Shown here in pieces: positions 25,200 to 54,376 of a DNA stretch of 64,000 bases; positions within the stretch are counted from its first letter, which is position 1; the number at the start of each line of letters is the position of its first letter. The notes beneath the pieces were generated by a model. That model saw nothing but the letters and a program-made list of their open reading frames with translations, was not told the DNA's origin and ran no database searches. The stretch comes from Phycisphaerales bacterium. GTDB taxonomy: Bacteria > Planctomycetota > Phycisphaerae > Phycisphaerales > UBA1924. The stretch spans positions 1,776,876 through 1,840,875 of the forward strand of contig CP064987.1 in the NCBI GenBank assembly GCA_016699835.1, in the 5' to 3' direction. The position numbers were made by a program, and so were the translations under genes.

Positions 25200-26726
25200 T
25201 CACTCCACCATCGACGCCGGCGGCGGGGTCTCATCCCCGATCCGCTCGCGTTTCACTTTGTCATCCTCCGACTCCAGCGACAACAGGCACATCTCCTCGT
25301 TGATCCGCGCCTGCAGATGCACCGGCCGCCCCCAGAGTCGCCGCAGGTGCCGCAGCACCTCGCTCGCCTTCTGCCCCTCCACCTCCAGCCCGCTGAACTT
25401 GTTCGCCAGGTACAACTCCCCGCGGTTCAGATAGTTCGCGTCCACCACATACACCATCGGCTGCCCCATGTTCGTCAGGTGGTGCAACAGCGTCATCTTC
25501 ACGCGCTTGAAATCCCGCGACACCACCTTCACCTCGCCCGTGTTCGGGTCCATCCGGTGCTGGTACATCTTGTGCCGCTCGACAAACTCCTCCGTCAGAA
25601 ACTCATCAATGAACGAGACGTCGTTGTAGATCCGGCGCACCTCAAAGATCTTCTCCCGCCCCATCATGCTCCGGTCGTCGTGCTTCTCCCGCGCCCCCAT
25701 GCTCTCCAGGCTCTCCCACCGTGGGCCGTGCTGACCCTTGTCCCACCTTCGCTCGATGTCCTTGAAGATCTCCAGCCCGATCTTGTACGGATTGAACCCG
25801 CCCGGCGGCATGTGCACCACGCCCGAGTGCTGATCCGCATAGTGCACGATCTCCTTCGATTCGAGAAAGTGCCGCGTCATCAACTTGCTGTGCCAATACG
25901 TCGCCCACCCCTCGTTCATCACCTTCGTCATCCCCTGCGGCGCGTAGTAGTACGCCTCATCGCGCACGATCGACAGCACATCCTGCTGCCACTCCTCGAG
26001 AGGCGCGTGCCGCAGCAGAAACAGCAGCACATCCCGCGTCGCCCGCCTCGGGAATCGCCCCCGCTCGCTCCGCCGCGCCTCCTCGTGCTCCTCACGCTGC
26101 CGCGCCATCTCCTCCCGCGGATTGATGTACCGGTCCATGTAGTCCTTCGCCGGCAGACGCTGGGGCGAGAACTCCTCATTCGCGCCATCGCCACCCTCCC
26201 TCGCCACAAACATCGAGTGCGGATCGATCAGGTGCTCCAGAGACAAGCACGAATCAATGAACCGCTCCACCCGCTCCTGACCCTGCCGCTCGATGTGCCG
26301 ACGAACCCGCGTCGCGTGGTTCGCCATCTGGTCCATCATTTTCCGGTCCGTCTTGCTGAACCACAGATTGTTCTTGAAGAAGTCCGCGTGCCCGTACACG
26401 TGCGCCATCACCAGTTTCTGATCCGTGACGCTGTTGCTCTCCTGCAGATACGCGTAGCACGGGTCGTTGTTGATCACCATCTCATAGATGCGCCCAAGCC
26501 CATACGCGTCGCGCTTGCTCAGCCGCTCATACTCCATCCCCCACCGCCAGTGCGGATACCGCACCGGAAAACCCCCATACGCCGCGATCTGGTTCATCGT
26601 CTCGAAGTCCAGAACCTCGAAGACGACCTCATAGAAGTCCAGCCCGTACTCGATCGCCTTGGCCTTGATGGCCTTCATGTGCTCGAGCAACTCAGGCGAC
26701 AGATCCGTGTTCGGCAGCCCCGTCAT
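25200..26726 (-). CDS. SpoVR/YcgB family protein
   Basis: Translation ...LDFYEVVFEVLDFETMNQIAAYGGFPVRYPHWRWGMEYE...VMAHVYGHADFFKNN. I trimmed the start to Met128 of the ORF. Confidence 0.85.
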   Translation of the reverse strand: MTGLPNTDLSPELLEHMKAIKAKAIEYGLDFYEVVFEVLDFETMNQIAAYGGFPVRYPHWRWGMEYERLSKRDAYGLGRIYEMVINNDPCYAYLQESNSVTDQKLVMAHVYGHADFFKNNLWFSKTDRKMMDQMANHATRVRRHIERQGQERVERFIDSCLSLEHLIDPHSMFVAREGGDGANEEFSPQRLPAKDYMDRYINPREEMARQREEHEEARRSERGRFPRRATRDVLLFLLRHAPLEEWQQDVLSIVRDEAYYYAPQGMTKVMNEGWATYWHSKLMTRHFLESKEIVHYADQHSGVVHMPPGGFNPYKIGLEIFKDIERRWDKGQHGPRWESLESMGAREKHDDRSMMGREKIFEVRRIYNDVSFIDEFLTEEFVERHKMYQHRMDPNTGEVKVVSRDFKRVKMTLLHHLTNMGQPMVYVVDANYLNRGELYLANKFSGLEVEGQKASEVLRHLRRLWGRPVHLQARINEEMCLLSLESEDDKVKRERIGDETPPPASMVE

Positions 26727-26952
26727 ACCACACTTATCGGCCGCACACCCCCTCCGGTTCGCCCCAATCTCATCGCCATAACCACAACTTCCTCGCCGCC
26801 CCCGCCCGTGATCCACACAAACGTCCCGTCCACCCACCCGGGGCGGGACATCTCCTAAACCAATCCGCCAGCGTGTCCGATTCCCTCCGCGCCTCGTTCC
26901 ACAGCCGAAGAGGCCAGCCGTTCCCCGTCTCCAAGATTGGACACGCTCACCC

Positions 26953-29007
26953 ATGAAGGTCAAGACCAAACTCCTCGTCGTCATGCTCGCCGCCGGGCTT
27001 CTCCCCGTCATCACCCTCTCGGGCATCCTCTGGAACCAACAATCCTCCAGACTCGTCGAGGACCAGGGCCACAGCCTCCAGACCGCCGCCCACAACATCC
27101 TCGACAAGATCGAGCGAAACCTCTTCGAACGCTACGGCGACGTCCAGGCCTTCGGATACAACGCCGTCGTCCTCGACCAGGACCACTGGTACCAGCCCGG
27201 CGACACCAACCCCATCGTCCAGTCCATGGACCGCTATGTCGCCGCATACGGCGTCTACGCCGCCACAATCCTCGTCGACACCGACGGCAAGGTCATCGCC
27301 GTCAACTCCAAAGACGCCTCGGGCAAGCCCCTCAACACCGACATCTTCTACAACAAGTCCTTCAAGCACGAGTCCTGGTTCCAGGACGCCACCAGCAACC
27401 GATTCCTCGCCTCCAACCAACTCACCGGCACCGTCGTGACTGACCTCCACGTCGACGACCTCGTCAAGCAGGCCTGTGGCGAAGACGGCCTCGTCCTCGG
27501 CTTCACCGCCCCCGTCACCGACTCCACCGGCACCACCGTCGCCGTCTGGCACAACGTCGCCCGCTGGGCTCTCGTCGAGGAACTCCTCGCCTCCGAATAC
27601 GACGCGCTCAGCAAGGAAGGCCACAACAGCGCCGAGATCACACTCATCGACTACCAGGGCCGCATCCTTGCCGATTGCGATCCCGCCCACGCAGGATCCG
27701 TCAACCGCGACCTCACCAACGTCATCCTCCGTGAGAATCTCATCACCCAATCCAACGAGGCGGCCAAGAACGCCATCGCGGGCAACGACGGATTCCTCGA
27801 AACCACACACCACCGCCTCAAAACCCCGCAACTCACCGGCTACGCCCAGAGCGAAGGCGCCCTCGGCTACCCAGGCCTCAAGTGGTCCCTCCTCGTCAGC
27901 ATCGACAAGGCCGAAGTCTTGTCCGACCTGAGCCAGGCACGCAATCAGGCCATCCTCGTCCTCCTCGCCGCAGGCGCCATCGTCGCCGTCGGCGCCTGGA
28001 TCTTCGCACGCCAACTCACACGACCCATCCACGCCATGATCGCACGCCTCAAGGACATCGCCCAGGGCGAAGGCGACCTCACCCAGCGCGTCGACGACTC
28101 CCGAAAGGACGAGTTCGGTGAACTCGGTACCTGGTTCAACACCTTCGTCACCAACATCCGCGACGTCATCAAGGAAGTCGCCACCTCCGCCAACAGCGTC
28201 GCCGCCGCCTCCACCCAGATCGCCGCCTCCAGCGAGGAAATGTCCGCAGGCATCAACGAGCAGCGAAATCAGGTCTCCCAGATCGCCGCCGCCACAGGCG
28301 AGATGTCCTCCTCCGTCGTCGAGGTCGCTCGCCAGGCCTCCGACCTCCTCCAGAGCGCCCACAACGCCGGCAAGACCGCCGAGGCCGGCGGCGAGATCGT
28401 CTCCCAATCCATCGCCGGCATGCACGACATCAACCAGGCCGTCGCCTCCTCCGCCGATATCGTCCTCGATCTCGGCAAACGCGGCGAGCAGATCGGCAAC
28501 ATCGTCCAGACCATCAACGAGATCGCCGACCAGACCAACCTCCTCGCCCTCAACGCCGCCATCGAGGCCGCCCGCGCCGGCGAGCACGGCCGGGGCTTCG
28601 CCGTCGTCGCCGACGAGGTCCGCAAACTCGCCGACCGCACCACCAAAGCCACCGATGAGATCGCCGAATCCATCCGCACCATCCGCGATCAGACCGCCAA
28701 GGCCGTCTCCCACATGGAAGTCGGAACCCGGCGCGTCAAAGACGGCGTCTCCCAATCCGAGAAAGCCGGCCAGAGCCTCTCCGCGATCGTGGACAACACC
28801 AGGCACCTCGCCTCGCTCGTCCAGTCCATCGCCGCCGCCGCCGAACAGCAAGGCTCCGCCGCCGAGGAAATCAGCCGCAACATCGAGGGCGTCAGTTCCG
28901 TCTCCGCCCAGACCTCCCAGGGCGCATCCGAAGCCTCCCACGCCGCCCAGGACCTCTCCATGAAGGCCGAATCACTCAACCGGCTCGTCACCAGATTCAA
29001 ACTCTGA
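26953..29007 (+). CDS. Methyl-accepting chemotaxis protein (two TM helices, periplasmic sensor of about 300 aa, HAMP, MA domain)
   Basis: The signalling hairpin reads [37 protein letters not shown]. The HAMP segment reads [24 protein letters not shown]. Confidence 0.9.
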
Positions 29008-36834: not shown

Positions 36835-38535
36835 ATGATGTACACGTCCACTCGTTGCGTCGCACGATCACTCATCGCCATCGCCGCCACACTCGCGCTC
36901 GCCTCGGCCGCCAGCGCCCAGACCTTCACCAACAACACCGCAATCACCATCCCCGCCGGCGCCCCGGGCACAACCAACGGCCCCGCCAGCGTCTACCCCA
37001 GCATCATCAACGTCGCCGGCGTCCCCAACATCGACTACATCGAGGTCCGACTCCTCGGCCTCACCCACACCTACGTCGGCGACCTCGACATCCTCATTGT
37101 CGCGCCAGGAGGGCAAGCCATTCTCTTGGCCTCGGACCAAGGAAACAACGTCCCGCTTACCGCCCAGGACGTCATCTTCACGTTCGATGCGCCGACCTTC
37201 TTCCCCACCCCAGATCCAACAGGTGTCCCCGGATACGTCTTCCGGCCCGTCGGCGGCAGCCAAACCGACCCATTCACCGCACCGGCCCCCGCAGGACCTT
37301 ACACCGGCACCCTCAACGCCCTCAACGGCTCCGCCGGCAACGGCACCTGGGCCCTCTACATCATGGACGACGCCGCCGCCGACGTGGGAGCACTCGCCGG
37401 TGGCTGGCAGATCTCCTTCAACGGCTCGCGCGTCGACCAGCCTCGGCCCGAGGTCATGACCTACCAGGGACGTCTCGATTTCAACGGCACCCCCGCCAAC
37501 GGCAACTTCGACATCCAGTACAACCTCTGGACGCACCCCACAAGCACGCTCGACGACGACCTCGTCTCGGGAACGCCCACCGTTTCCAACGTCCCCGTCG
37601 CCAACGGCCTTTTCTCCATACAACTCGACGGCCTCGCCACCGAACTCTTCGACCGCGAACTCTGGCTCGAAATCCGCGCCCGACAATCCGGCGGCGGCGC
37701 CTTCACGCCCCTCGCCGGACGACAGAAACTCACCGCCTCGCCCTTCGCCATCTCCTCCGCCAACGCCTTCAACGCCGCTCACGTCCCCTTCACCGGCATC
37801 ACCGCAAACCCCATCTCCCTCGATGCCTCCGGCGACCTCATCACCACCAACCGACTCGCCGTCGGCGGCAACGGCGCCGATCTCCTCAACGGCAACACCC
37901 ACTTCCAGGTCAATGGCGCCGCAGCTGCCAACGGCTACGGCGGAATGTACCTCAACACCTCCGACGCCGGATCCTGGCCGTTCTATGGCTACGCCACCAA
38001 CAACGCCATCCAGATGTGGACTTACTACAACGGTACCGAGGATGATTGGCGAGTCTGGCACGGCGCCGACCGCCTCTTCCTCGAGTCCAACGGCTATCTC
38101 GGCATCGGCGTCAACAACCCCGCAAACCGACTCGAACTCCCCAACCTGGCCTCCGCCGACGGCCGCGCCCGCGCCAACGCCTGGCTCACCTACTCCTCCG
38201 AAAAGTTCAAAACCAACATCACCCCCATCGCCAGCGCCCTCGAACGACTCGAACGACTCCAGGGCGTCACCTTCGACTGGAAGCCCGAGCACGGCGGCCA
38301 GCACGACATCGGATTCATCGCCCAGCGCGTCGCCGAGGTCCTCCCCGAGGTCGTCGCCTTCGAGAACGGCGAACCAAGCGCCGTCGACTACTCCCGCATC
38401 ACCGCGCTTGCCGTCGAGGCCGTCAAGGAACTCAAGGCCAAGCAGGACGCCAAGGTCGACTCACTCGTAAAGGAAAACGCCGACCTCAAGGCCCGCCTCG
38501 AACGAATCGAGGCCCTCCTCAAAGACCGCGAGTAA
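36835..38535 (+). CDS. Secreted protein combining a proprotein-convertase P-domain with a tail-fibre-like C-terminal intramolecular chaperone (peptidase S74-like) domain
   Basis: A signal peptide is present. The P-domain-like part reads THTYVGDLDILIVAPGG...GNGTWALYIMDDAAADVGALAGGWQISF. The C-terminal part reads YSSEKFKTNI..L.GVTFDWK...DIGFIAQRVAEVLPEVV, followed by a coiled coil. Confidence 0.75.
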   Translation: MMYTSTRCVARSLIAIAATLALASAASAQTFTNNTAITIPAGAPGTTNGPASVYPSIINVAGVPNIDYIEVRLLGLTHTYVGDLDILIVAPGGQAILLASDQGNNVPLTAQDVIFTFDAPTFFPTPDPTGVPGYVFRPVGGSQTDPFTAPAPAGPYTGTLNALNGSAGNGTWALYIMDDAAADVGALAGGWQISFNGSRVDQPRPEVMTYQGRLDFNGTPANGNFDIQYNLWTHPTSTLDDDLVSGTPTVSNVPVANGLFSIQLDGLATELFDRELWLEIRARQSGGGAFTPLAGRQKLTASPFAISSANAFNAAHVPFTGITANPISLDASGDLITTNRLAVGGNGADLLNGNTHFQVNGAAAANGYGGMYLNTSDAGSWPFYGYATNNAIQMWTYYNGTEDDWRVWHGADRLFLESNGYLGIGVNNPANRLELPNLASADGRARANAWLTYSSEKFKTNITPIASALERLERLQGVTFDWKPEHGGQHDIGFIAQRVAEVLPEVVAFENGEPSAVDYSRITALAVEAVKELKAKQDAKVDSLVKENADLKARLERIEALLKDRE

Positions 38536-51227: not shown

Positions 51228-51257
51228 AAAAAAACGCCGGGCGTGCCCGGCGTTTTT
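51228..51257. terminator. Bidirectional rho-independent terminator (A7-CGCCGGG-CGTG-CCCGGCG-T5)
   Basis: It lies between the convergent stops at 51181 (+) and 51280 (-). Confidence 0.8.
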
Positions 51258-51279: not shown

Positions 51280-51780
51280 TCACGAAGCCGTGTACTTCCC
51301 ACGCCCCGCACGCTTGAACACCTTCGGATACTTGACCAGCGTCTGGTTCACGATCGTCCGGAAGTTCGGCGAGTTCGTCTTATACCCCGCCTTCTGAACC
51401 TCCACCACAATGTCCTTCACCCGAAGTGTCTTGCCCGACAGTAACTTCTTGAGCGCCGGCACCAGGGGCATGTCATTCACAGGACGCGTCCGTCCCCCAC
51501 CACCGCGACGACCCGCGGGACGACCCGCAGGACGACCCACAGGACGGCCACGCTTCGCGCGAGCCGGCGCGGGACCCGCAGCCGCCGAACCACCACCGGC
51601 CGAAGGAGGACTCCCCGGCGCAAGGTCCGCGATCTGCTGCTCGATCTCCCGCAGTTTCGCCGTCAGCCGCTGACGCTCACGCTCCAACCGGCCCACCGAA
51701 CTCTGCCGCCGAACCAACTCCGCCTGCAGTGCCCGGCTCGAAATCTTCGACAACGAATATCCACTACCACGCTTTGCCAT
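51280..51780 (-). CDS. Hypothetical DNA-binding protein: N-terminal coiled coil, AT-hook-like RGRP repeats, C-terminal winged-helix-like domain
   Basis: The coiled-coil part reads LERERQRLTAKLREIEQQIADL. The AT-hook-like part reads KRGRPVGRPAGRPAGRRGGGG. The C-terminal part reads LRVKDIVVEVQKAGYKTNSPNFRTIVNQTLVKYPKVFKRAGRGKY. Confidence 0.6.
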   Translation of the reverse strand: MAKRGSGYSLSKISSRALQAELVRRQSSVGRLERERQRLTAKLREIEQQIADLAPGSPPSAGGGSAAAGPAPARAKRGRPVGRPAGRPAGRRGGGGRTRPVNDMPLVPALKKLLSGKTLRVKDIVVEVQKAGYKTNSPNFRTIVNQTLVKYPKVFKRAGRGKYTAS

Positions 51781-52040
51781 GAAATGTCCTTCTCATCCAA
51801 GATGAAACACGCGGGCGAACGCCTTGGATCGCGTCACGCTGCCCTCGCGTCTTCGACGCTCAATACGCCGACACGCACGCGCGTCTCCCAATAGTCGCCG
51901 AACGCGCCCACATGCACGCCGGAGAGTCGCGGTGGGATGGCCGCAACAACGCGAATATTAGCGGAATCCACACCCCCATGCGGGATTCTTGACAAAAACC
52001 AATTGCAACTTCAACGACAGTAACCCCTGTTTGGTGTCCG

Positions 52041-53039
52041 TCAATAGTTCTCTCGCGAGAATCCAAGTTTCGAGAGCACGCCATCGAACTGATCGAGTGA
52101 GAAAAACGAGACTATCACTTGCCCCTTCGTGCCTCGACGATCCGTTCGAATCGATACCCGAGTGCCAAGATGTTGCGACAACCGCTTCTCAATATCACGC
52201 ACAACCGCCTCACGAGGGGAATACGTGACCGGGTCCGGATTCGCCCCGGCAACCCGTGCCGCCTCGCTCGCGCCTTCTCCCGCCCGTCGCGACTCCTCCT
52301 CCACACGACGCACGCTCCAGCCGTTCGACGCCGCCTGCTTCGCGAGCGCCACGCGTCGAACGCCGGCCGGCGCCATCAACAGTGCTCGCGCGTGCCCCCC
52401 AGAGAGACGACCGTCCGAGACCATCATCGCGACCTCGTCCTCCAACTCCGTCAGCCGAACCAGGTTCGCGATCGTCGAGCGATCGATCCCAAGTCGTTCC
52501 GCCATCTGGGCCTGGGTCAATCCAAACTCGTCCGCTAGCCGCCGAAGCGCGTGCGCCCGATCCATCGGATTCAGGTCCTCACGCTGTACATTCTCAACAA
52601 GCCCCCACTCCGCCGAATCCTCATCCGTCAACTCACGAACCATCGCCGGAATATGCGTCAGCCCCGCCAACTTCGCGGCACGCCACCGCCGCTCCCCAGC
52701 CACCAACTCCAACTTCCCCCCAGCAATCGGCCGCACGATAATCGGTTGCATCAACCCCGACCGACGGATCGACGCCGCCAACCCCTCCACCGCCGCCGAG
52801 TCCATCACCCGCCGAGGCTGATACTCGCTCGGCACCACCCGTTCCACCGCAATACTCTGATACCCCTCACTCCGAATCTTCTCACCAACTTCCGCAGCGT
52901 TCATACCAGTCTGTATAGTCTGTGTTTGTTCGGTATGCGAAGCAACTTCGACTGGTTTGCTAACATTGATCAAGCTGCTAAGCCCGCGTCCAAGCCGCCG
53001 TCCCTTCACCGCTTCCGCGCCCTTGTTTGACTCGGCCAT
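52041..53039 (-). CDS. parB: Chromosome partitioning protein ParB/Spo0J
   Basis: Translation RRLGRGLSSLI...YQPRR...LAASIRRSGLMQPIIVRP...LVAGERRWRAAKLAGL...ENVQREDLNPMD. GGAGG lies 6 nt upstream of Met163. The 494-aa ORF extension is rejected. Confidence 0.9.
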   Translation of the reverse strand: MAESNKGAEAVKGRRLGRGLSSLINVSKPVEVASHTEQTQTIQTGMNAAEVGEKIRSEGYQSIAVERVVPSEYQPRRVMDSAAVEGLAASIRRSGLMQPIIVRPIAGGKLELVAGERRWRAAKLAGLTHIPAMVRELTDEDSAEWGLVENVQREDLNPMDRAHALRRLADEFGLTQAQMAERLGIDRSTIANLVRLTELEDEVAMMVSDGRLSGGHARALLMAPAGVRRVALAKQAASNGWSVRRVEEESRRAGEGASEAARVAGANPDPVTYSPREAVVRDIEKRLSQHLGTRVSIRTDRRGTKGQVIVSFFSLDQFDGVLSKLGFSRENY

Positions 53040-53075
53040 GAATGTCCTCCTGTAATAACCCGAATTGTACCGCTC

Positions 53076-53531
53076 ATGCGCGCGCAACAGGGAGTGTTTC
53101 ACGTGGCACAAATTGAACTCATCGCCAGAGGCATCTCCCGCCACCGCGGCAAAGTCCTGCTCTGTGGCCACGCTACCAAAAACTACTGGTACCTCCCAGG
53201 CGGCCACGTCGAACCCCACGAATCGGCCGCCGCCGCACTCGCCCGTGAGTTTCTCGAAGAAACCGGCCTGAAAGTCACCGTTGGCCCCTGTGTCGCTGTC
53301 GCAGAGCACATCTTCCGCCAGGGCAAAAAACACCGCCATGAGGTAAATCTTGTGTTTCACGTGAAACATCGGGAAAAGGATGCCCGCTCTCTCGAGCCAG
53401 AGATCGTGTTCAAATGGTGCCGCATCGACGAACTGGAGACGCTTGATCTTCGCCCTGCAGTGGCCGTGGATCTGGTGAAACTCCATCCTGGCGAGGTGCG
53501 GCATTTCCTCTGGAACTCGGACCAAAGTTGA
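53076..53531 (+). CDS. NUDIX hydrolase
   Basis: GGHVEPHESAAAALAREFLEETGL is a complete match to the NUDIX box GX5EX7REUXEEXGU. Confidence 0.85.
   Translation: MRAQQGVFHVAQIELIARGISRHRGKVLLCGHATKNYWYLPGGHVEPHESAAAALAREFLEETGLKVTVGPCVAVAEHIFRQGKKHRHEVNLVFHVKHREKDARSLEPEIVFKWCRIDELETLDLRPAVAVDLVKLHPGEVRHFLWNSDQS
53095..53110. other. Degenerate parS-like site TGTTTCACGTGGCACA (14 of 16 matches to the palindrome)
   Basis: Read directly from the sequence. It lies 56 nt from the parB start, inside the NUDIX 5' end. Confidence 0.55.
53353..53368. other. parS centromere-like site, perfect palindrome TGTTTCACGTGAAACA
   Basis: Exact 16-bp palindrome matching the canonical parS consensus tGTTNCACGTGAAACa. 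It lies inside the NUDIX CDS. Confidence 0.85.
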
Positions 53532-53554
53532 TTCGCTGACAACCCGATCCCAGA

Positions 53555-54376
53555 TTGGTGGATCCGAATCAGCCCAAATCAGAACTGGACGTCGCGGGCC
53601 AGGTTGACCGCCTCCGCGCGCGTGTGGCCGAGTTGGAGCGATCGGCTTTGCTGGGCACCGTTCTGGCTGGCGTGGCCCACGAAATCAATAACATCCTCAC
53701 ACCCGTTCTGGCGTATGCGGAGATGGCCGTGCGGTCCACGGAGGATGATCCGGTTCGTGGGAAGTCGATCGAGCGGACTTTGGCTGGGGTGGGGCGAGCG
53801 GCGACGATTTCGCGGGCGGTTTTGAGTCTTGTGAGGCAGTCGGGGCCTGTGTCTGGGGATTTGGATGTGGCGGCAGCGGTGGACACGGCAGTTACCGCGG
53901 TGCGGGCGCACTACCCGACCACATTGTTCCACGTGAAACATTCCCTACTCACAGCGTCCGTGCCGGAGGCTCAGGTTTCGACGATACTGGAAAATTTGCT
54001 GATGAATGCGGCGCGGGAGAGTTCTCGGGTTGAGGTTGTTGCGCGCGCTGCGGGTATGAATGAGGGTCAGGATTTGTGGGAGGGGATAGAGTGTCGGACG
54101 GAAATTCCGAAGGGTGATGTTGTGTTTGTCGAGGTGTTTTCGCCTGGGAGTCGGATGGCCTTGGAGATGCTGGCGGCCGTGGCGCGTATGTTCCGTGGGG
54201 AGGCGTTTGGTGCCGGGCGTGAGGCACGTGGAACTGGGTATGGCCTAACAATATCCAAACTATTGGCTGATCAGATTGGGGCTGGGCTTGGGTTGGTTTC
54301 GGAGCCTGGTGGAGTTCGGGCAATTCTCGCGCTTCCTGTGTCCTCGGTGAAACAGGAAGCGGGTGCCATGCGATAG
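53555..54376 (+). CDS. Soluble sensor histidine kinase (HisKA plus HATPase_c only)
   Basis: The H-box reads LAGVAHEINNILTPVL. The G-box reads GTGYGLTISKLLADQIGAGLGL. There are no TM segments and no adjacent response regulator. The start is TTG or GTG at 53555/53558. Confidence 0.75.
   Translation: MVDPNQPKSELDVAGQVDRLRARVAELERSALLGTVLAGVAHEINNILTPVLAYAEMAVRSTEDDPVRGKSIERTLAGVGRAATISRAVLSLVRQSGPVSGDLDVAAAVDTAVTAVRAHYPTTLFHVKHSLLTASVPEAQVSTILENLLMNAARESSRVEVVARAAGMNEGQDLWEGIECRTEIPKGDVVFVEVFSPGSRMALEMLAAVARMFRGEAFGAGREARGTGYGLTISKLLADQIGAGLGLVSEPGGVRAILALPVSSVKQEAGAMR
53925..53940. other. parS centromere-like site TGTTCCACGTGAAACA
   Basis: It matches the canonical parS at 15 of 16 palindromic positions and is identical to the classical Bacillus-type sequence. 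It lies inside the kinase CDS. Confidence 0.8.

What the first reader, a model, noticed from the sequence alone, without database searches (positions are those of the whole stretch)
53095..53940. Three parS-type sites embedded in coding sequence beside a parB gene that lacks parA
A perfect 16-bp palindrome TGTTTCACGTGAAACA sits at 53353-53368. The classical TGTTCCACGTGAAACA sits at 53925-53940. A 14-of-16 variant sits at 53095-53110. All three lie within 900 bp, directly upstream of parB.

All three are inside ORFs (the NUDIX gene and the histidine kinase). As a result both proteins contain the peptide FHVKH.

The two outer sites are in inverted orientation and share an extended flank (CCACGTGAAACAYTCCCT).

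parB has no parA partner. Its upstream neighbour is the divergent NUDIX gene, and its downstream neighbour is an AT-hook protein gene.

The perfect site coincides with the centre of the skew flip.
Basis: partly seen in the sequence, partly recalled or inferred. Interest (0 to 1): 0.65.

Follow-up and report, generated by a model that had tools for sequence, protein, structure and literature searches.

The report
Origin-proximal parS centromere beside unlinked parB
Three real parS centromere sites sit next to a canonical parB gene at the replication-origin end of a Phycisphaeraceae (Planctomycetota) chromosome; this is the ordinary bacterial ParB-parS arrangement, unusual only in that parA is not next to parB and two sites lie inside genes.

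Summary
The 16-mers at 53095, 53353 and 53925 are the only parS-like sequences in 64 kb (0.07 expected by chance).

- **ParB:** the adjacent gene (52041-53039, minus strand) encodes a canonical chromosomal ParB with the N-terminal CTPase domain, HTH and C-terminal dimerisation domain.
- **Conservation:** in 27 of 27 related Phycisphaerae/Planctomycetota loci, parS-like sites cluster within -1.8 to +0.4 kb of the parB start. That is 52 sites there against 1 in the other 280 kb.
- **Selection on DNA:** the NUDIX-internal site occupies the same codons in five diverged genomes. Its two half-sites co-vary (TTT..AAA to TTC..GAA) at the cost of a Lys-to-Glu change.
- **Origin:** the GC-skew switch maps to 53340, 13 bp from the perfect palindrome, with origin polarity. 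No dnaA gene or DnaA-box cluster is nearby.
- **ParA:** no ParA-type ATPase is encoded in the window or within 6-10 kb of parB in any relative. Every ParB nevertheless keeps the N-terminal ParA-binding peptide (LGRGLSSLI), so an unlinked parA is more likely than none.

Caveats: site 1 may lie in the NUDIX leader or start codon rather than in coding sequence, and the shared flank is not conserved.

Verdict: a new member of a known kind, of modest interest. A conserved uncharacterised gene downstream of parB (p166) is the most novel item.

The parts
53095..53110 (.). parS-1, TGTTTCACGTGGCACA (one mismatch to TGTTNCACGTGNAACA). Its centre is 63 bp upstream of the parB ATG. It lies in the parB/NUDIX divergent control region or the first NUDIX codons.
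   Evidence: It is 16/16 identical in L001. Homologous sites lie 56-131 bp upstream of parB in L003, L005, L006 and L009.
53353..53368 (.). parS-2, the perfect palindrome TGTTTCACGTGAAACA, inside NUDIX codons 93-98 (VFHVKH).
   Evidence: It is 15/16 identical in L001, while the next 120 bp are only about 50% identical. The site occupies the same codon position in L001, L002, L012 and L030, with co-varying half-sites.
53925..53940 (.). parS-3, TGTTCCACGTGAAACA, inside histidine kinase codons 124-129 (LFHVKH), between the HisKA and HATPase_c domains.
   Evidence: It is 16/16 identical in L001.
52041..53039 (-). parB, 332 aa. It carries the N-terminal ParA-binding peptide LGRGLSSLI (residues 16-24), the CTP-binding motifs GERRWRA (115-121) and ENVQREDLNP (149-158), the HTH, and the C-terminal dimerisation domain. 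AGGAGG lies 6 nt upstream of the ATG.
   Evidence: One search gives the translation. Pfam finds ParB_N, HTH_ParB and ParB_C. TIGR00180 scores above its cut-off and the Noc model scores below its cut-off. The best solved relatives are M. xanthus, C. crescentus and T. thermophilus ParB.
53076..53531 (+). NUDIX hydrolase gene, divergent from parB; an alternative start is the GTG at 53103. It hosts parS-2 and possibly parS-1.
   Evidence: Pfam NUDIX E = 2.7e-17. The gene is syntenic upstream of parB in L001, L002, L003, L005, L006, L009, L012, L026 and L030.
53555..54376 (+). Soluble histidine kinase gene (HisKA + HATPase_c). It hosts parS-3.
   Evidence: A homologue lies beside parB in many relatives.
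53199..53462 (.). GC/AT-skew switch of origin polarity (maximum-likelihood point 53340). To the left the plus strand is C-rich (-0.25 to -0.45); to the right it is G-rich (+0.2 to +0.4).
   Evidence: A similar switch lies beside the parS cluster in L001 and L012.
51280..51780 (-). p166, a conserved uncharacterised gene directly downstream of parB. It has a coiled coil, an AT-hook-rich linker and a C-terminal winged helix. It is a candidate accessory DNA-binding protein and is not shown to be part of the system.
   Evidence: There are no Pfam or NCBIfam hits. It has 231 homologues, all named hypothetical; every one that carries an organism label is from Phycisphaerae. It lies next to parB in 12 of 13 places examined.

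Best explanation
The three 16-mers are functional parS sites, that is, the chromosomal centromere of a Phycisphaeraceae bacterium.

**Proposed mechanism.**
1. Dimers of the adjacent canonical ParB (a CTP-dependent DNA clamp) load at the three sites.
2. The clamps slide over the surrounding few kb, covering parB, the NUDIX gene, the kinase gene and p166, and build a partition complex.
3. Because the cluster lies at or within about 1-2 kb of the replication origin, the complex is duplicated first.
4. The complex then serves as the handle for origin segregation, through SMC loading and through a ParA ATPase.
5. That ParA is predicted to be encoded elsewhere in the genome, because ParB keeps its ParA-binding peptide.

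Intergenic space is minimal here, so two of the sites lie inside genes in the one reading frame that gives a tolerable beta-strand peptide, (V/L)FHV(K/E). Site 1, 63 bp upstream of parB, may additionally allow ParB to autoregulate the divergent parB and NUDIX promoters.

**What is shown.** Site sequences, their clustering and conservation, the ParB domain and motif content, the skew switch, and the local absence of parA.

**What is inferred.** ParB binding, spreading, SMC and ParA engagement, and autoregulation.
For: - **Sites beyond chance.** Three sites match the universal parS consensus and are the only ones in 64 kb; 0.07 are expected.
- **Canonical ParB.** Pfam finds ParB_N, HTH_ParB and ParB_C. 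TIGR00180 scores 162 bits against a 58-bit cut-off, and the Noc model scores below its cut-off. The closest solved structures are parS-binding ParBs of Myxococcus, Caulobacter, Thermus and Bacillus. The GERRWRA and ENVQREDLNP CTP motifs are present.
- **Conserved clustering.** 27 of 27 related loci have at least one parS-like site within -1800 to +400 of the parB start. That is 52 sites in 58.5 kb against 1 in 280 kb, about a 250-fold enrichment.
- **Islands of conservation.** Between the window and L001 the sites are 16/16, 15/16 and 16/16 identical, while adjacent NUDIX sequence is about 50% identical.
- **Selection on the palindrome.** parS-2 occupies the same NUDIX codons in the window, L001, L002, L012 and L030. 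A TTT-to-TTC change is paired with AAA-to-GAA (Lys to Glu), which keeps the palindrome. Across all sites, positions 5 and 12 are C/G in 43 of 53.
- **Origin polarity.** The GC and AT skew switch at 53340. dnaE, gyrA, clpB and parB on the left and the NUDIX, kinase and GSDH genes on the right are co-oriented with the diverging forks.
- **ParA-binding peptide.** The N-terminal peptide is conserved in all 24 relatives with an N-terminus. Its role is described in PMC12462528.
Against: - No binding data exist; everything rests on sequence and comparison.
- No ParA-type ATPase is present in the window or in any of the 31 loci searched (L001-L031). The ParA limb of the mechanism is therefore unverified.
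- SMC/ScpAB were not found in the window, and the genome could not be scanned.
- No dnaA gene and no cluster of E. coli-type DnaA boxes lie near the skew switch. The origin assignment rests on compositional skew alone.
- In some relatives (L002, L018, L019) the switch is 5 kb or more from the parS cluster.
Confidence: 0.85

Rival explanations
1. This is a truly ParA-less system of the Streptococcus pneumoniae / Staphylococcus aureus type. ParB-parS serves only to load SMC and organise the origin region, and no ParA exists anywhere in the genome.
For: - No ParA is found in 64 kb.
- None is found within 6-10 kb of parB in the 31 related loci searched (L001-L031) across the class.
- ParA-less ParB-parS-SMC species are documented (PMC7333895, PMC4488948).
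Against: [quoted passage not shown] Keeping it without a partner over class-level divergence would be unexpected.
- Whole genomes could not be searched here.
Confidence: 0.3
2. The sites act mainly as transcriptional operators. ParB, or another CACGTG-binding regulator, controls the divergent parB and NUDIX-kinase transcription units, and segregation is secondary.
For: - Site 1 lies 63 bp upstream of the parB ATG, in a 36-63 bp divergent region that is 97-100% identical to L001.
- ParB spreading is known to modulate neighbouring genes in S. pneumoniae (PMC4488948).
Against: - Sites 2 and 3 are 321 and 893 bp away, deep inside genes.
- The full 16-bp parS consensus is conserved, not only the CACGTG core.
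- The ParB has all the features of a CTPase clamp.
- The cluster tracks the origin-type skew switch.
- Regulation is more plausibly a by-product.
Confidence: 0.1
3. The parS cluster is itself part of the replication origin. Initiation occurs within the parB-NUDIX-kinase coding region, and ParB/parS takes part in origin function.
For: - The skew change point, 53340 (support 53199-53462), falls on parS-2.
- The transition from full negative to full positive skew spans roughly 52900-53950, which is the span of the cluster.
- There is no dnaA gene or DnaA-box cluster within -53/+10.6 kb.
- The switch lies in or next to the parS cluster in L001 and L012.
Against: - The largest non-coding gaps at the switch are 36-63 bp and 23 bp, with no recognisable unwinding element or initiator boxes.
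- Skew minima locate origins only to about a kb.
- A 260-bp conserved intergenic region lies 1.3 kb away (51781-52040).
- In L002, L018 and L019 the switch is 5 kb or more from the parS sites.
Confidence: 0.1
4. The repeats are by-products of protein-level selection for an FHVKH peptide, or chance, and not DNA sites.
For: Both embedded sites encode (V/L)FHVKH, and the NUDIX strand at that position is hydrophobic-F-x-V in relatives that lack the site (LIFRVD, IVFLME).
Against: - The chance expectation is 0.07.
- Third-codon positions within the sites are invariant, while flanking synonymous positions change.
- A Lys-to-Glu replacement accompanies the synonymous TTT-to-TTC change and keeps the palindrome.
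- Homologous sites occur in non-coding DNA and in other frames in relatives.
- Two unrelated proteins would have to need the same hexapeptide.
Confidence: 0.02

Closest known systems
Chromosomal ParABS / Spo0J-parS centromeres (Bacillus subtilis, Caulobacter crescentus, Myxococcus xanthus, Thermus thermophilus)
   Same: - The same 16-bp palindromic consensus.
- A ParB with the CTPase N-domain, HTH, C-terminal dimerisation domain and N-terminal ParA-binding peptide.
- Sites clustered near the origin and next to parB (PMC7333895).
- From my own knowledge rather than anything checked here, a parS inside a coding sequence is classical: the first B. subtilis parS lies within spo0J.
   Different: - parA is not adjacent to parB, here or in any of the related Phycisphaerae loci checked.
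- The cluster coincides with the skew switch to within about 100 bp, rather than lying several kb away.
- dnaA is not nearby.
ParA-less ParB-parS-SMC systems of Streptococcus pneumoniae and Staphylococcus aureus
   Same: - parB without a neighbouring parA.
- A few origin-proximal parS sites with the consensus tGTTTCACGtGAAACa, identical to parS-2.
- ParB spreading into neighbouring genes (PMC4488948, PMC7333895).
   Different: - Here the ParB retains the ParA-binding N-terminal peptide.
- Genome-wide absence of ParA is not established.
- The presence of SMC was not tested.
Multi-site origin-proximal parS clusters (Streptomyces coelicolor, Listeria innocua, Pseudomonas aeruginosa)
   Same: Several closely spaced parS copies near oriC, with variable numbers between relatives (PMC7333895, PMC5961200).
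   Different: There are only three sites within 850 bp, and the copy number in relatives is 1-4.
Rok of Bacillus subtilis (nucleoid-associated protein); comparison for the neighbouring gene p166 only
   Same: An N-terminal coiled-coil helix, a flexible basic linker and a C-terminal winged-helix DNA-binding domain. The Rok C-domain is the top fold hit (5zux/5zuz, probability 0.97-0.98).
   Different: - The fold-search E-values are only about 0.03.
- There is no sequence similarity to any Pfam, NCBIfam or PDB family.
- p166 carries AT-hook GRP repeats.
- p166 is linked to parB, which Rok is not.

Membership tests
Chromosomal ParB-parS (ParABS) partition system | A 16-bp palindromic parS matching tGTTNCACGTGAAACa | tested here: met
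   Three sites have 0, 0 and 1-2 mismatches. They are the only ones in 64 kb, with 0.07 expected.
Chromosomal ParB-parS (ParABS) partition system | A ParB protein with the ParB_N (CTPase) domain, HTH and C-terminal dimerisation domain, including the GERRxRA CTP motif | tested here: met
   Pfam finds ParB_N (3e-32), HTH_ParB (3e-30) and ParB_C (7.5e-14). TIGR00180 scores above its cut-off. GERRWRA lies at residues 115-121. The best PDB hits are parS-binding ParBs.
Chromosomal ParB-parS (ParABS) partition system | Sites concentrated near the replication origin | tested here: met
   A skew switch of origin polarity lies at 53340, inside the cluster. The origin is inferred from composition only.
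Chromosomal ParB-parS (ParABS) partition system | Sites conserved in relatives beyond the neutral expectation | tested here: met
   27 of 27 loci have sites next to parB, about a 250-fold enrichment. The sites are islands of identity against L001. Half-sites co-vary.
Chromosomal ParB-parS (ParABS) partition system | A ParA (Soj) deviant Walker A ATPase partner, usually encoded immediately upstream of parB | tested here: not met
   There is no Soj-like sequence or KGGxGK[ST] motif in the window. None is found within 6-10 kb of parB in the 31 related loci searched (L001-L031), and no ParA-family Pfam domain is annotated among the called genes of L026-L034. Presence elsewhere in the genome could not be tested.
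Chromosomal ParB-parS (ParABS) partition system | An N-terminal ParA-binding peptide on ParB | tested here: met
   RLGRGLSSLI lies at residues 15-24 and is conserved in all 24 relatives with an N-terminus. The motif is described in PMC12462528.
Chromosomal ParB-parS (ParABS) partition system | Specific, CTP-dependent ParB loading at the sites | not testable with these tools
   This needs ChIP-seq, EMSA/BLI or single-molecule assays.
ParA-less ParB-parS-SMC system (S. pneumoniae type) | No ParA homologue anywhere in the genome | not testable with these tools
   Only 64 kb of this genome, and 6-10 kb flanks in relatives, were available.
ParA-less ParB-parS-SMC system (S. pneumoniae type) | An SMC-ScpAB complex present as the ParB client | not tested
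   No SMC was seen among the window ORFs that were scanned. The rest of the genome was not available.
Noc / NBS nucleoid occlusion system | A Noc-type paralogue and an NBS site (ATTTCCCGGGAAAT) | tested here: not met
   The Noc model TIGR04285 scores 198.9 bits against a 315-bit cut-off. The sites have a CACGTG core, not CCCGGG.

The most novel reading that the evidence does not exclude
Phycisphaerae may have re-wired the partition locus. parA has been removed from the operon, or lost altogether. In its place parB is stably paired with p166, a clade-specific protein with a coiled coil, AT-hooks and a winged helix (Rok-like architecture). The centromere has also merged with the replication origin inside coding DNA that has no dnaA or DnaA-box cluster nearby.

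On this reading p166 would be a new ParB accessory factor, for example one that anchors or compacts the origin-centromere region in a class that is reported to divide without FtsZ (my own knowledge, not checked here).
Probability: 0.12. Interest if true: 0.7.

Novelty: new member of a known kind. Interest (0 to 1): 0.3.

Why it matters
The finding gives a firm centromere and origin-region annotation for Phycisphaeraceae, a poorly studied planctomycete lineage.

It shows that the parS position is held by selection even inside protein-coding genes, with a visible cost to the protein (Lys to Glu).

It also yields three concrete, testable predictions:
- an unlinked ParA is encoded elsewhere in the genome;
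- the replication origin lies within about 1 kb of parS-2;
- p166 is a conserved partner gene of parB.

For chromosome-segregation specialists, none of the core features is surprising.

Tried and rejected
- **Extended flank as a larger recognition element: rejected.** The flank CCACGTGAAACAYTCCCT is real in the window, but at site 3 it is only 3/6 conserved in L001. At site 1 it coincides with a Shine-Dalgarno-like AGGGAG, 8 nt before an in-frame GTG.
- **A fourth site at 54220 (3 mismatches): rejected.** It encodes the kinase G2 box ARGTGYGL, and its conservation is at the protein level.
- **A recognisable oriC: not found.** TTATCCACA with up to 1 or 2 mismatches shows no cluster near the switch. 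tblastn with DnaA finds nothing in the window or in 31 loci. The promoter scan found no sigma-70-type sites in 51.1-54.5 kb.
- **ncRNA: none.** Rfam finds only a tRNA at 251-338.
- **Literature on ParA/ParB in Planctomycetes or Phycisphaerae: nothing usable**. Livny et al. 2007 is not held, and no accessible source for 'parS within spo0J' was found.
- **p166 against Pfam, NCBIfam and PDB sequences: no significant hits**.
Full report
**1. Observation**

The window sequence and a pattern search confirm three parS-like 16-mers:
- TGTTTCACGTGGCACA at 53095-53110;
- the perfect palindrome TGTTTCACGTGAAACA at 53353-53368;
- TGTTCCACGTGAAACA at 53925-53940.

At up to 2 mismatches these are the only matches in 64 kb. 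Dinucleotide-preserving shuffles give 0.07 matches on average, and none reached the observed number.

With 3 mismatches, three further hits appear, against an expectation of about 1.1 matches in shuffled sequence. The one near the cluster, at 54220, encodes the kinase G2 box and is not a parS.

The NUDIX protein contains VFHVKH and the histidine kinase contains LFHVKH.

The outer sites form a 23-nt inverted repeat.

**2. Genes and organism**

- **parB** is 52041-53039 on the minus strand and encodes 332 aa, with AGGAGG 6 nt before the ATG.
  - It has ParB_N, HTH_ParB and ParB_C domains.
  - It passes the NCBIfam ParB/Spo0J model and fails the Noc model.
  - It is most similar to the structurally characterised ParBs of Myxococcus, Caulobacter, Thermus and Bacillus.
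  - It carries the CTP-binding motifs GERRWRA and ENVQREDLNP.
- **Divergent from parB** are a NUDIX hydrolase gene (53076-53531), a soluble HisKA/HATPase_c kinase gene (53555-54376) and a GSDH-family gene.
- **Downstream of parB** is p166 (51280-51780), followed by a hairpin terminator, a TfoX_N gene and clpB.
- **Elsewhere in the window** are dnaE, gyrA, a class II (Asp/Lys/Asn-type) aminoacyl-tRNA synthetase gene and an ATP-synthase subunit gene. This is therefore the main chromosome.

The closest relatives of ParB are MAGs labelled Phycisphaeraceae, Phycisphaerales or Planctomycetota. The best is 92% identical, on a 1.04-Mb contig.

**3. Comparative test**

I searched 27 related loci: 24 of the 25 ParB-centred loci, leaving out the 5'-truncated L024, plus three p166-centred loci (L026, L028, L030).
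- Every locus has at least one parS-like site between -1800 and +400 of the parB start.
- There are 52 sites in those 58.5 kb, against a single weak match in the other 280 kb.
- The prevailing variant is the fully symmetric TGTTCCACGTGGAACA.

Between the window and L001, the three sites are 16/16, 15/16 and 16/16 identical. The NUDIX 3' half just downstream of parS-2 is only about 50% identical.

parS-2 occupies the same NUDIX codons (HEVNxVFHV-K/E) in the window, L001, L002, L012 and L030. Where position 5 is C instead of T (a synonymous change in the Phe codon), position 12 is G instead of A, which turns Lys into Glu. Selection therefore acts on the DNA palindrome and not on the peptide.

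Relatives that lack the site have LIFRVD or IVFLME at that strand. The fold offers a compatible template, and the site is an overlay on it.

The classical A-variant can be encoded in only two of the three frames, because the third contains TGA. All embedded sites in the window use the xTG-TTY-CAC-GTG-RAA-CAx frame.

**4. Site 1**

In L003 and L005 the homologous site is in frame with NUDIX. In L006 and L009 it is out of frame, and the conserved NUDIX N-terminus (MHQPIETIARG) starts downstream of it.

In the window, a GTG at 53103 inside the site, preceded at 8 nt by AGGGAG, would give M-AQIELIARG, which matches those N-termini. Site 1 is therefore best described as lying in the 36-63 bp divergent parB/NUDIX control region. 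That region is 97-100% identical to L001.

This also gives a mundane explanation for the 'extended flank', which is not conserved at site 3 in L001.

**5. Origin**

GC skew is very strong across the window:
- it runs from -0.2 to -0.42 on the left and from +0.04 to +0.4 on the right;
- AT skew changes sign mostly in the opposite sense;
- the skew is independent of gene strand.

The cumulative minimum is at 53337. A two-state likelihood change point is 53340, with support 53241-53371. This is origin polarity.

Similar switches lie in or beside the parS cluster in L001 and L012, and about 1.5 kb from the parB start (about 1.4-1.6 kb from its two parS sites) in L011. The switch is 5 kb or more away, or outside the locus, in L002, L018 and L019.

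No dnaA gene and no DnaA-box cluster lie within -53/+10.6 kb. The largest non-coding gaps at the switch are 36-63 bp and 23 bp.

The origin assignment is therefore compositional. Its exact position is uncertain by about a kb.

**6. ParA**

No ParA-type ATPase was found:
- tblastn with Soj finds nothing in the window;
- no deviant Walker A motif occurs in any frame of the window;
- the 31 related loci searched (L001-L031) contain no Soj-like sequence;
- no ParA-family Pfam domain is annotated among the called genes of L026-L034.

The absence of a linked parA is thus a clade-wide trait.

However, all 24 ParB relatives with an N-terminus retain RLGRGLSSL. [quoted passage not shown] I therefore consider an unlinked parA more likely (about 0.6) than a ParA-less system of the S. 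pneumoniae / S. aureus type (PMC7333895). The genome could not be scanned to decide this.

**7. Mechanism**

- **Shown.** Consensus sites, a canonical CTPase-type ParB, conservation and co-variation of the sites, and their position at the skew switch.
- **Inferred from established ParABS biology (PMC7333895, PMC4488948, PMC12462528).**
  - ParB dimers load at the three sites.
  - They close as CTP-dependent clamps and slide over neighbouring DNA.
  - They recruit SMC and, through the N-terminal peptide, engage ParA to segregate the newly replicated origin region.
  - Site 1 may also mediate autoregulation of parB and the NUDIX gene.

**8. Comparison and novelty**

All defining features of a chromosomal ParB-parS centromere that can be tested in silico are met, except an adjacent parA.
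- Origin-proximal parS clusters and ParB without ParA are documented in the reviews cited above.
- parS inside coding sequence is classical from my own knowledge; I could not retrieve a source for it here.

This is a new member of a known kind in an under-studied phylum, and I score its interest at about 0.3.

**9. Most novel residue: p166**

- p166 has 231 homologues, all annotated hypothetical; every homologue that carries an organism label is from Phycisphaerae.
- It has no Pfam, NCBIfam or PDB sequence match.
- The AF2 model shows a long N-terminal helix, a disordered Gly/Arg linker with GRP AT-hooks, and a confident C-terminal winged helix.
- The best fold matches for that winged helix are the Rok DNA-binding domain and other winged helices, at weak E-values.
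- It lies directly downstream of parB in 12 of 13 places examined.

Whether p166 works with ParB is unknown.

Noticed in passing
window 51280-51780 (minus strand); also L001-L003, L005, L006, L009, L012, L026, L028, L030, L032, L033: p166 is an uncharacterised protein family: 231 homologues, all named 'hypothetical', and every one that carries an organism label is from Phycisphaerae. It has an N-terminal coiled coil, a Gly/Arg linker with AT-hook GRP repeats, and a highly conserved C-terminal winged helix (FRTIVNQ..RGxYTA). The architecture resembles the nucleoid protein Rok, and the fold hits are weak (E about 0.03). It lies directly after parB in 12 of 13 places examined.
   Followed up: partly
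whole window 1-64000; L001, L002, L012, L018, L019: GC skew is exceptionally strong (0.25-0.42 in 2-kb windows) and independent of gene strand. It is shared by some relatives, whereas most other related loci have skew near zero.
   Followed up: partly
window 1-64000, around the skew switch at 53340: There is no dnaA gene and no cluster of TTATCCACA-like boxes within 53 kb to the left or 10.6 kb to the right of the origin-type skew switch. The nearest sizeable conserved non-coding stretch is 51781-52040 (260 bp, 92% identical to L001).
   Followed up: partly
window 53370-53600: The NUDIX 3' end, the 23-bp spacer and the kinase 5' end are only about 43-57% identical to L001, while flanking genes are 85-93% identical. 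This fast-diverging patch lies just to the right of the skew switch. The cause is unknown.
   Followed up: no
window 53089-53105: A possible alternative NUDIX start codon, GTG at 53103, lies inside parS-1, with AGGGAG (53089-53094) as its ribosome-binding site. The centromere site would then overlap a translation start.
   Followed up: partly
window 51230-51257: A perfect 13-bp hairpin flanked by A and T runs (AAAAACGCCGGGC..GCCCGGCGTTTTT) lies between the convergent TfoX_N gene and p166. It is a likely bidirectional terminator.
   Followed up: no
L026-L031, L033 and the window: Synteny around parB is conserved across distant Phycisphaerae. The pattern is ABC-transporter ATPase gene, kinase and/or NUDIX gene, parB, p166, then clpB within a few kb, with dnaE, a DciA-like gene or a pol III delta-like gene nearby.
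   Followed up: no
window 25200-27107 and 36835-38535: A SpoVR-like protein gene, and a protein with a peptidase S74 (endosialidase chaperone) domain, lie in the origin-proximal region. Neither was examined further.
   Followed up: no
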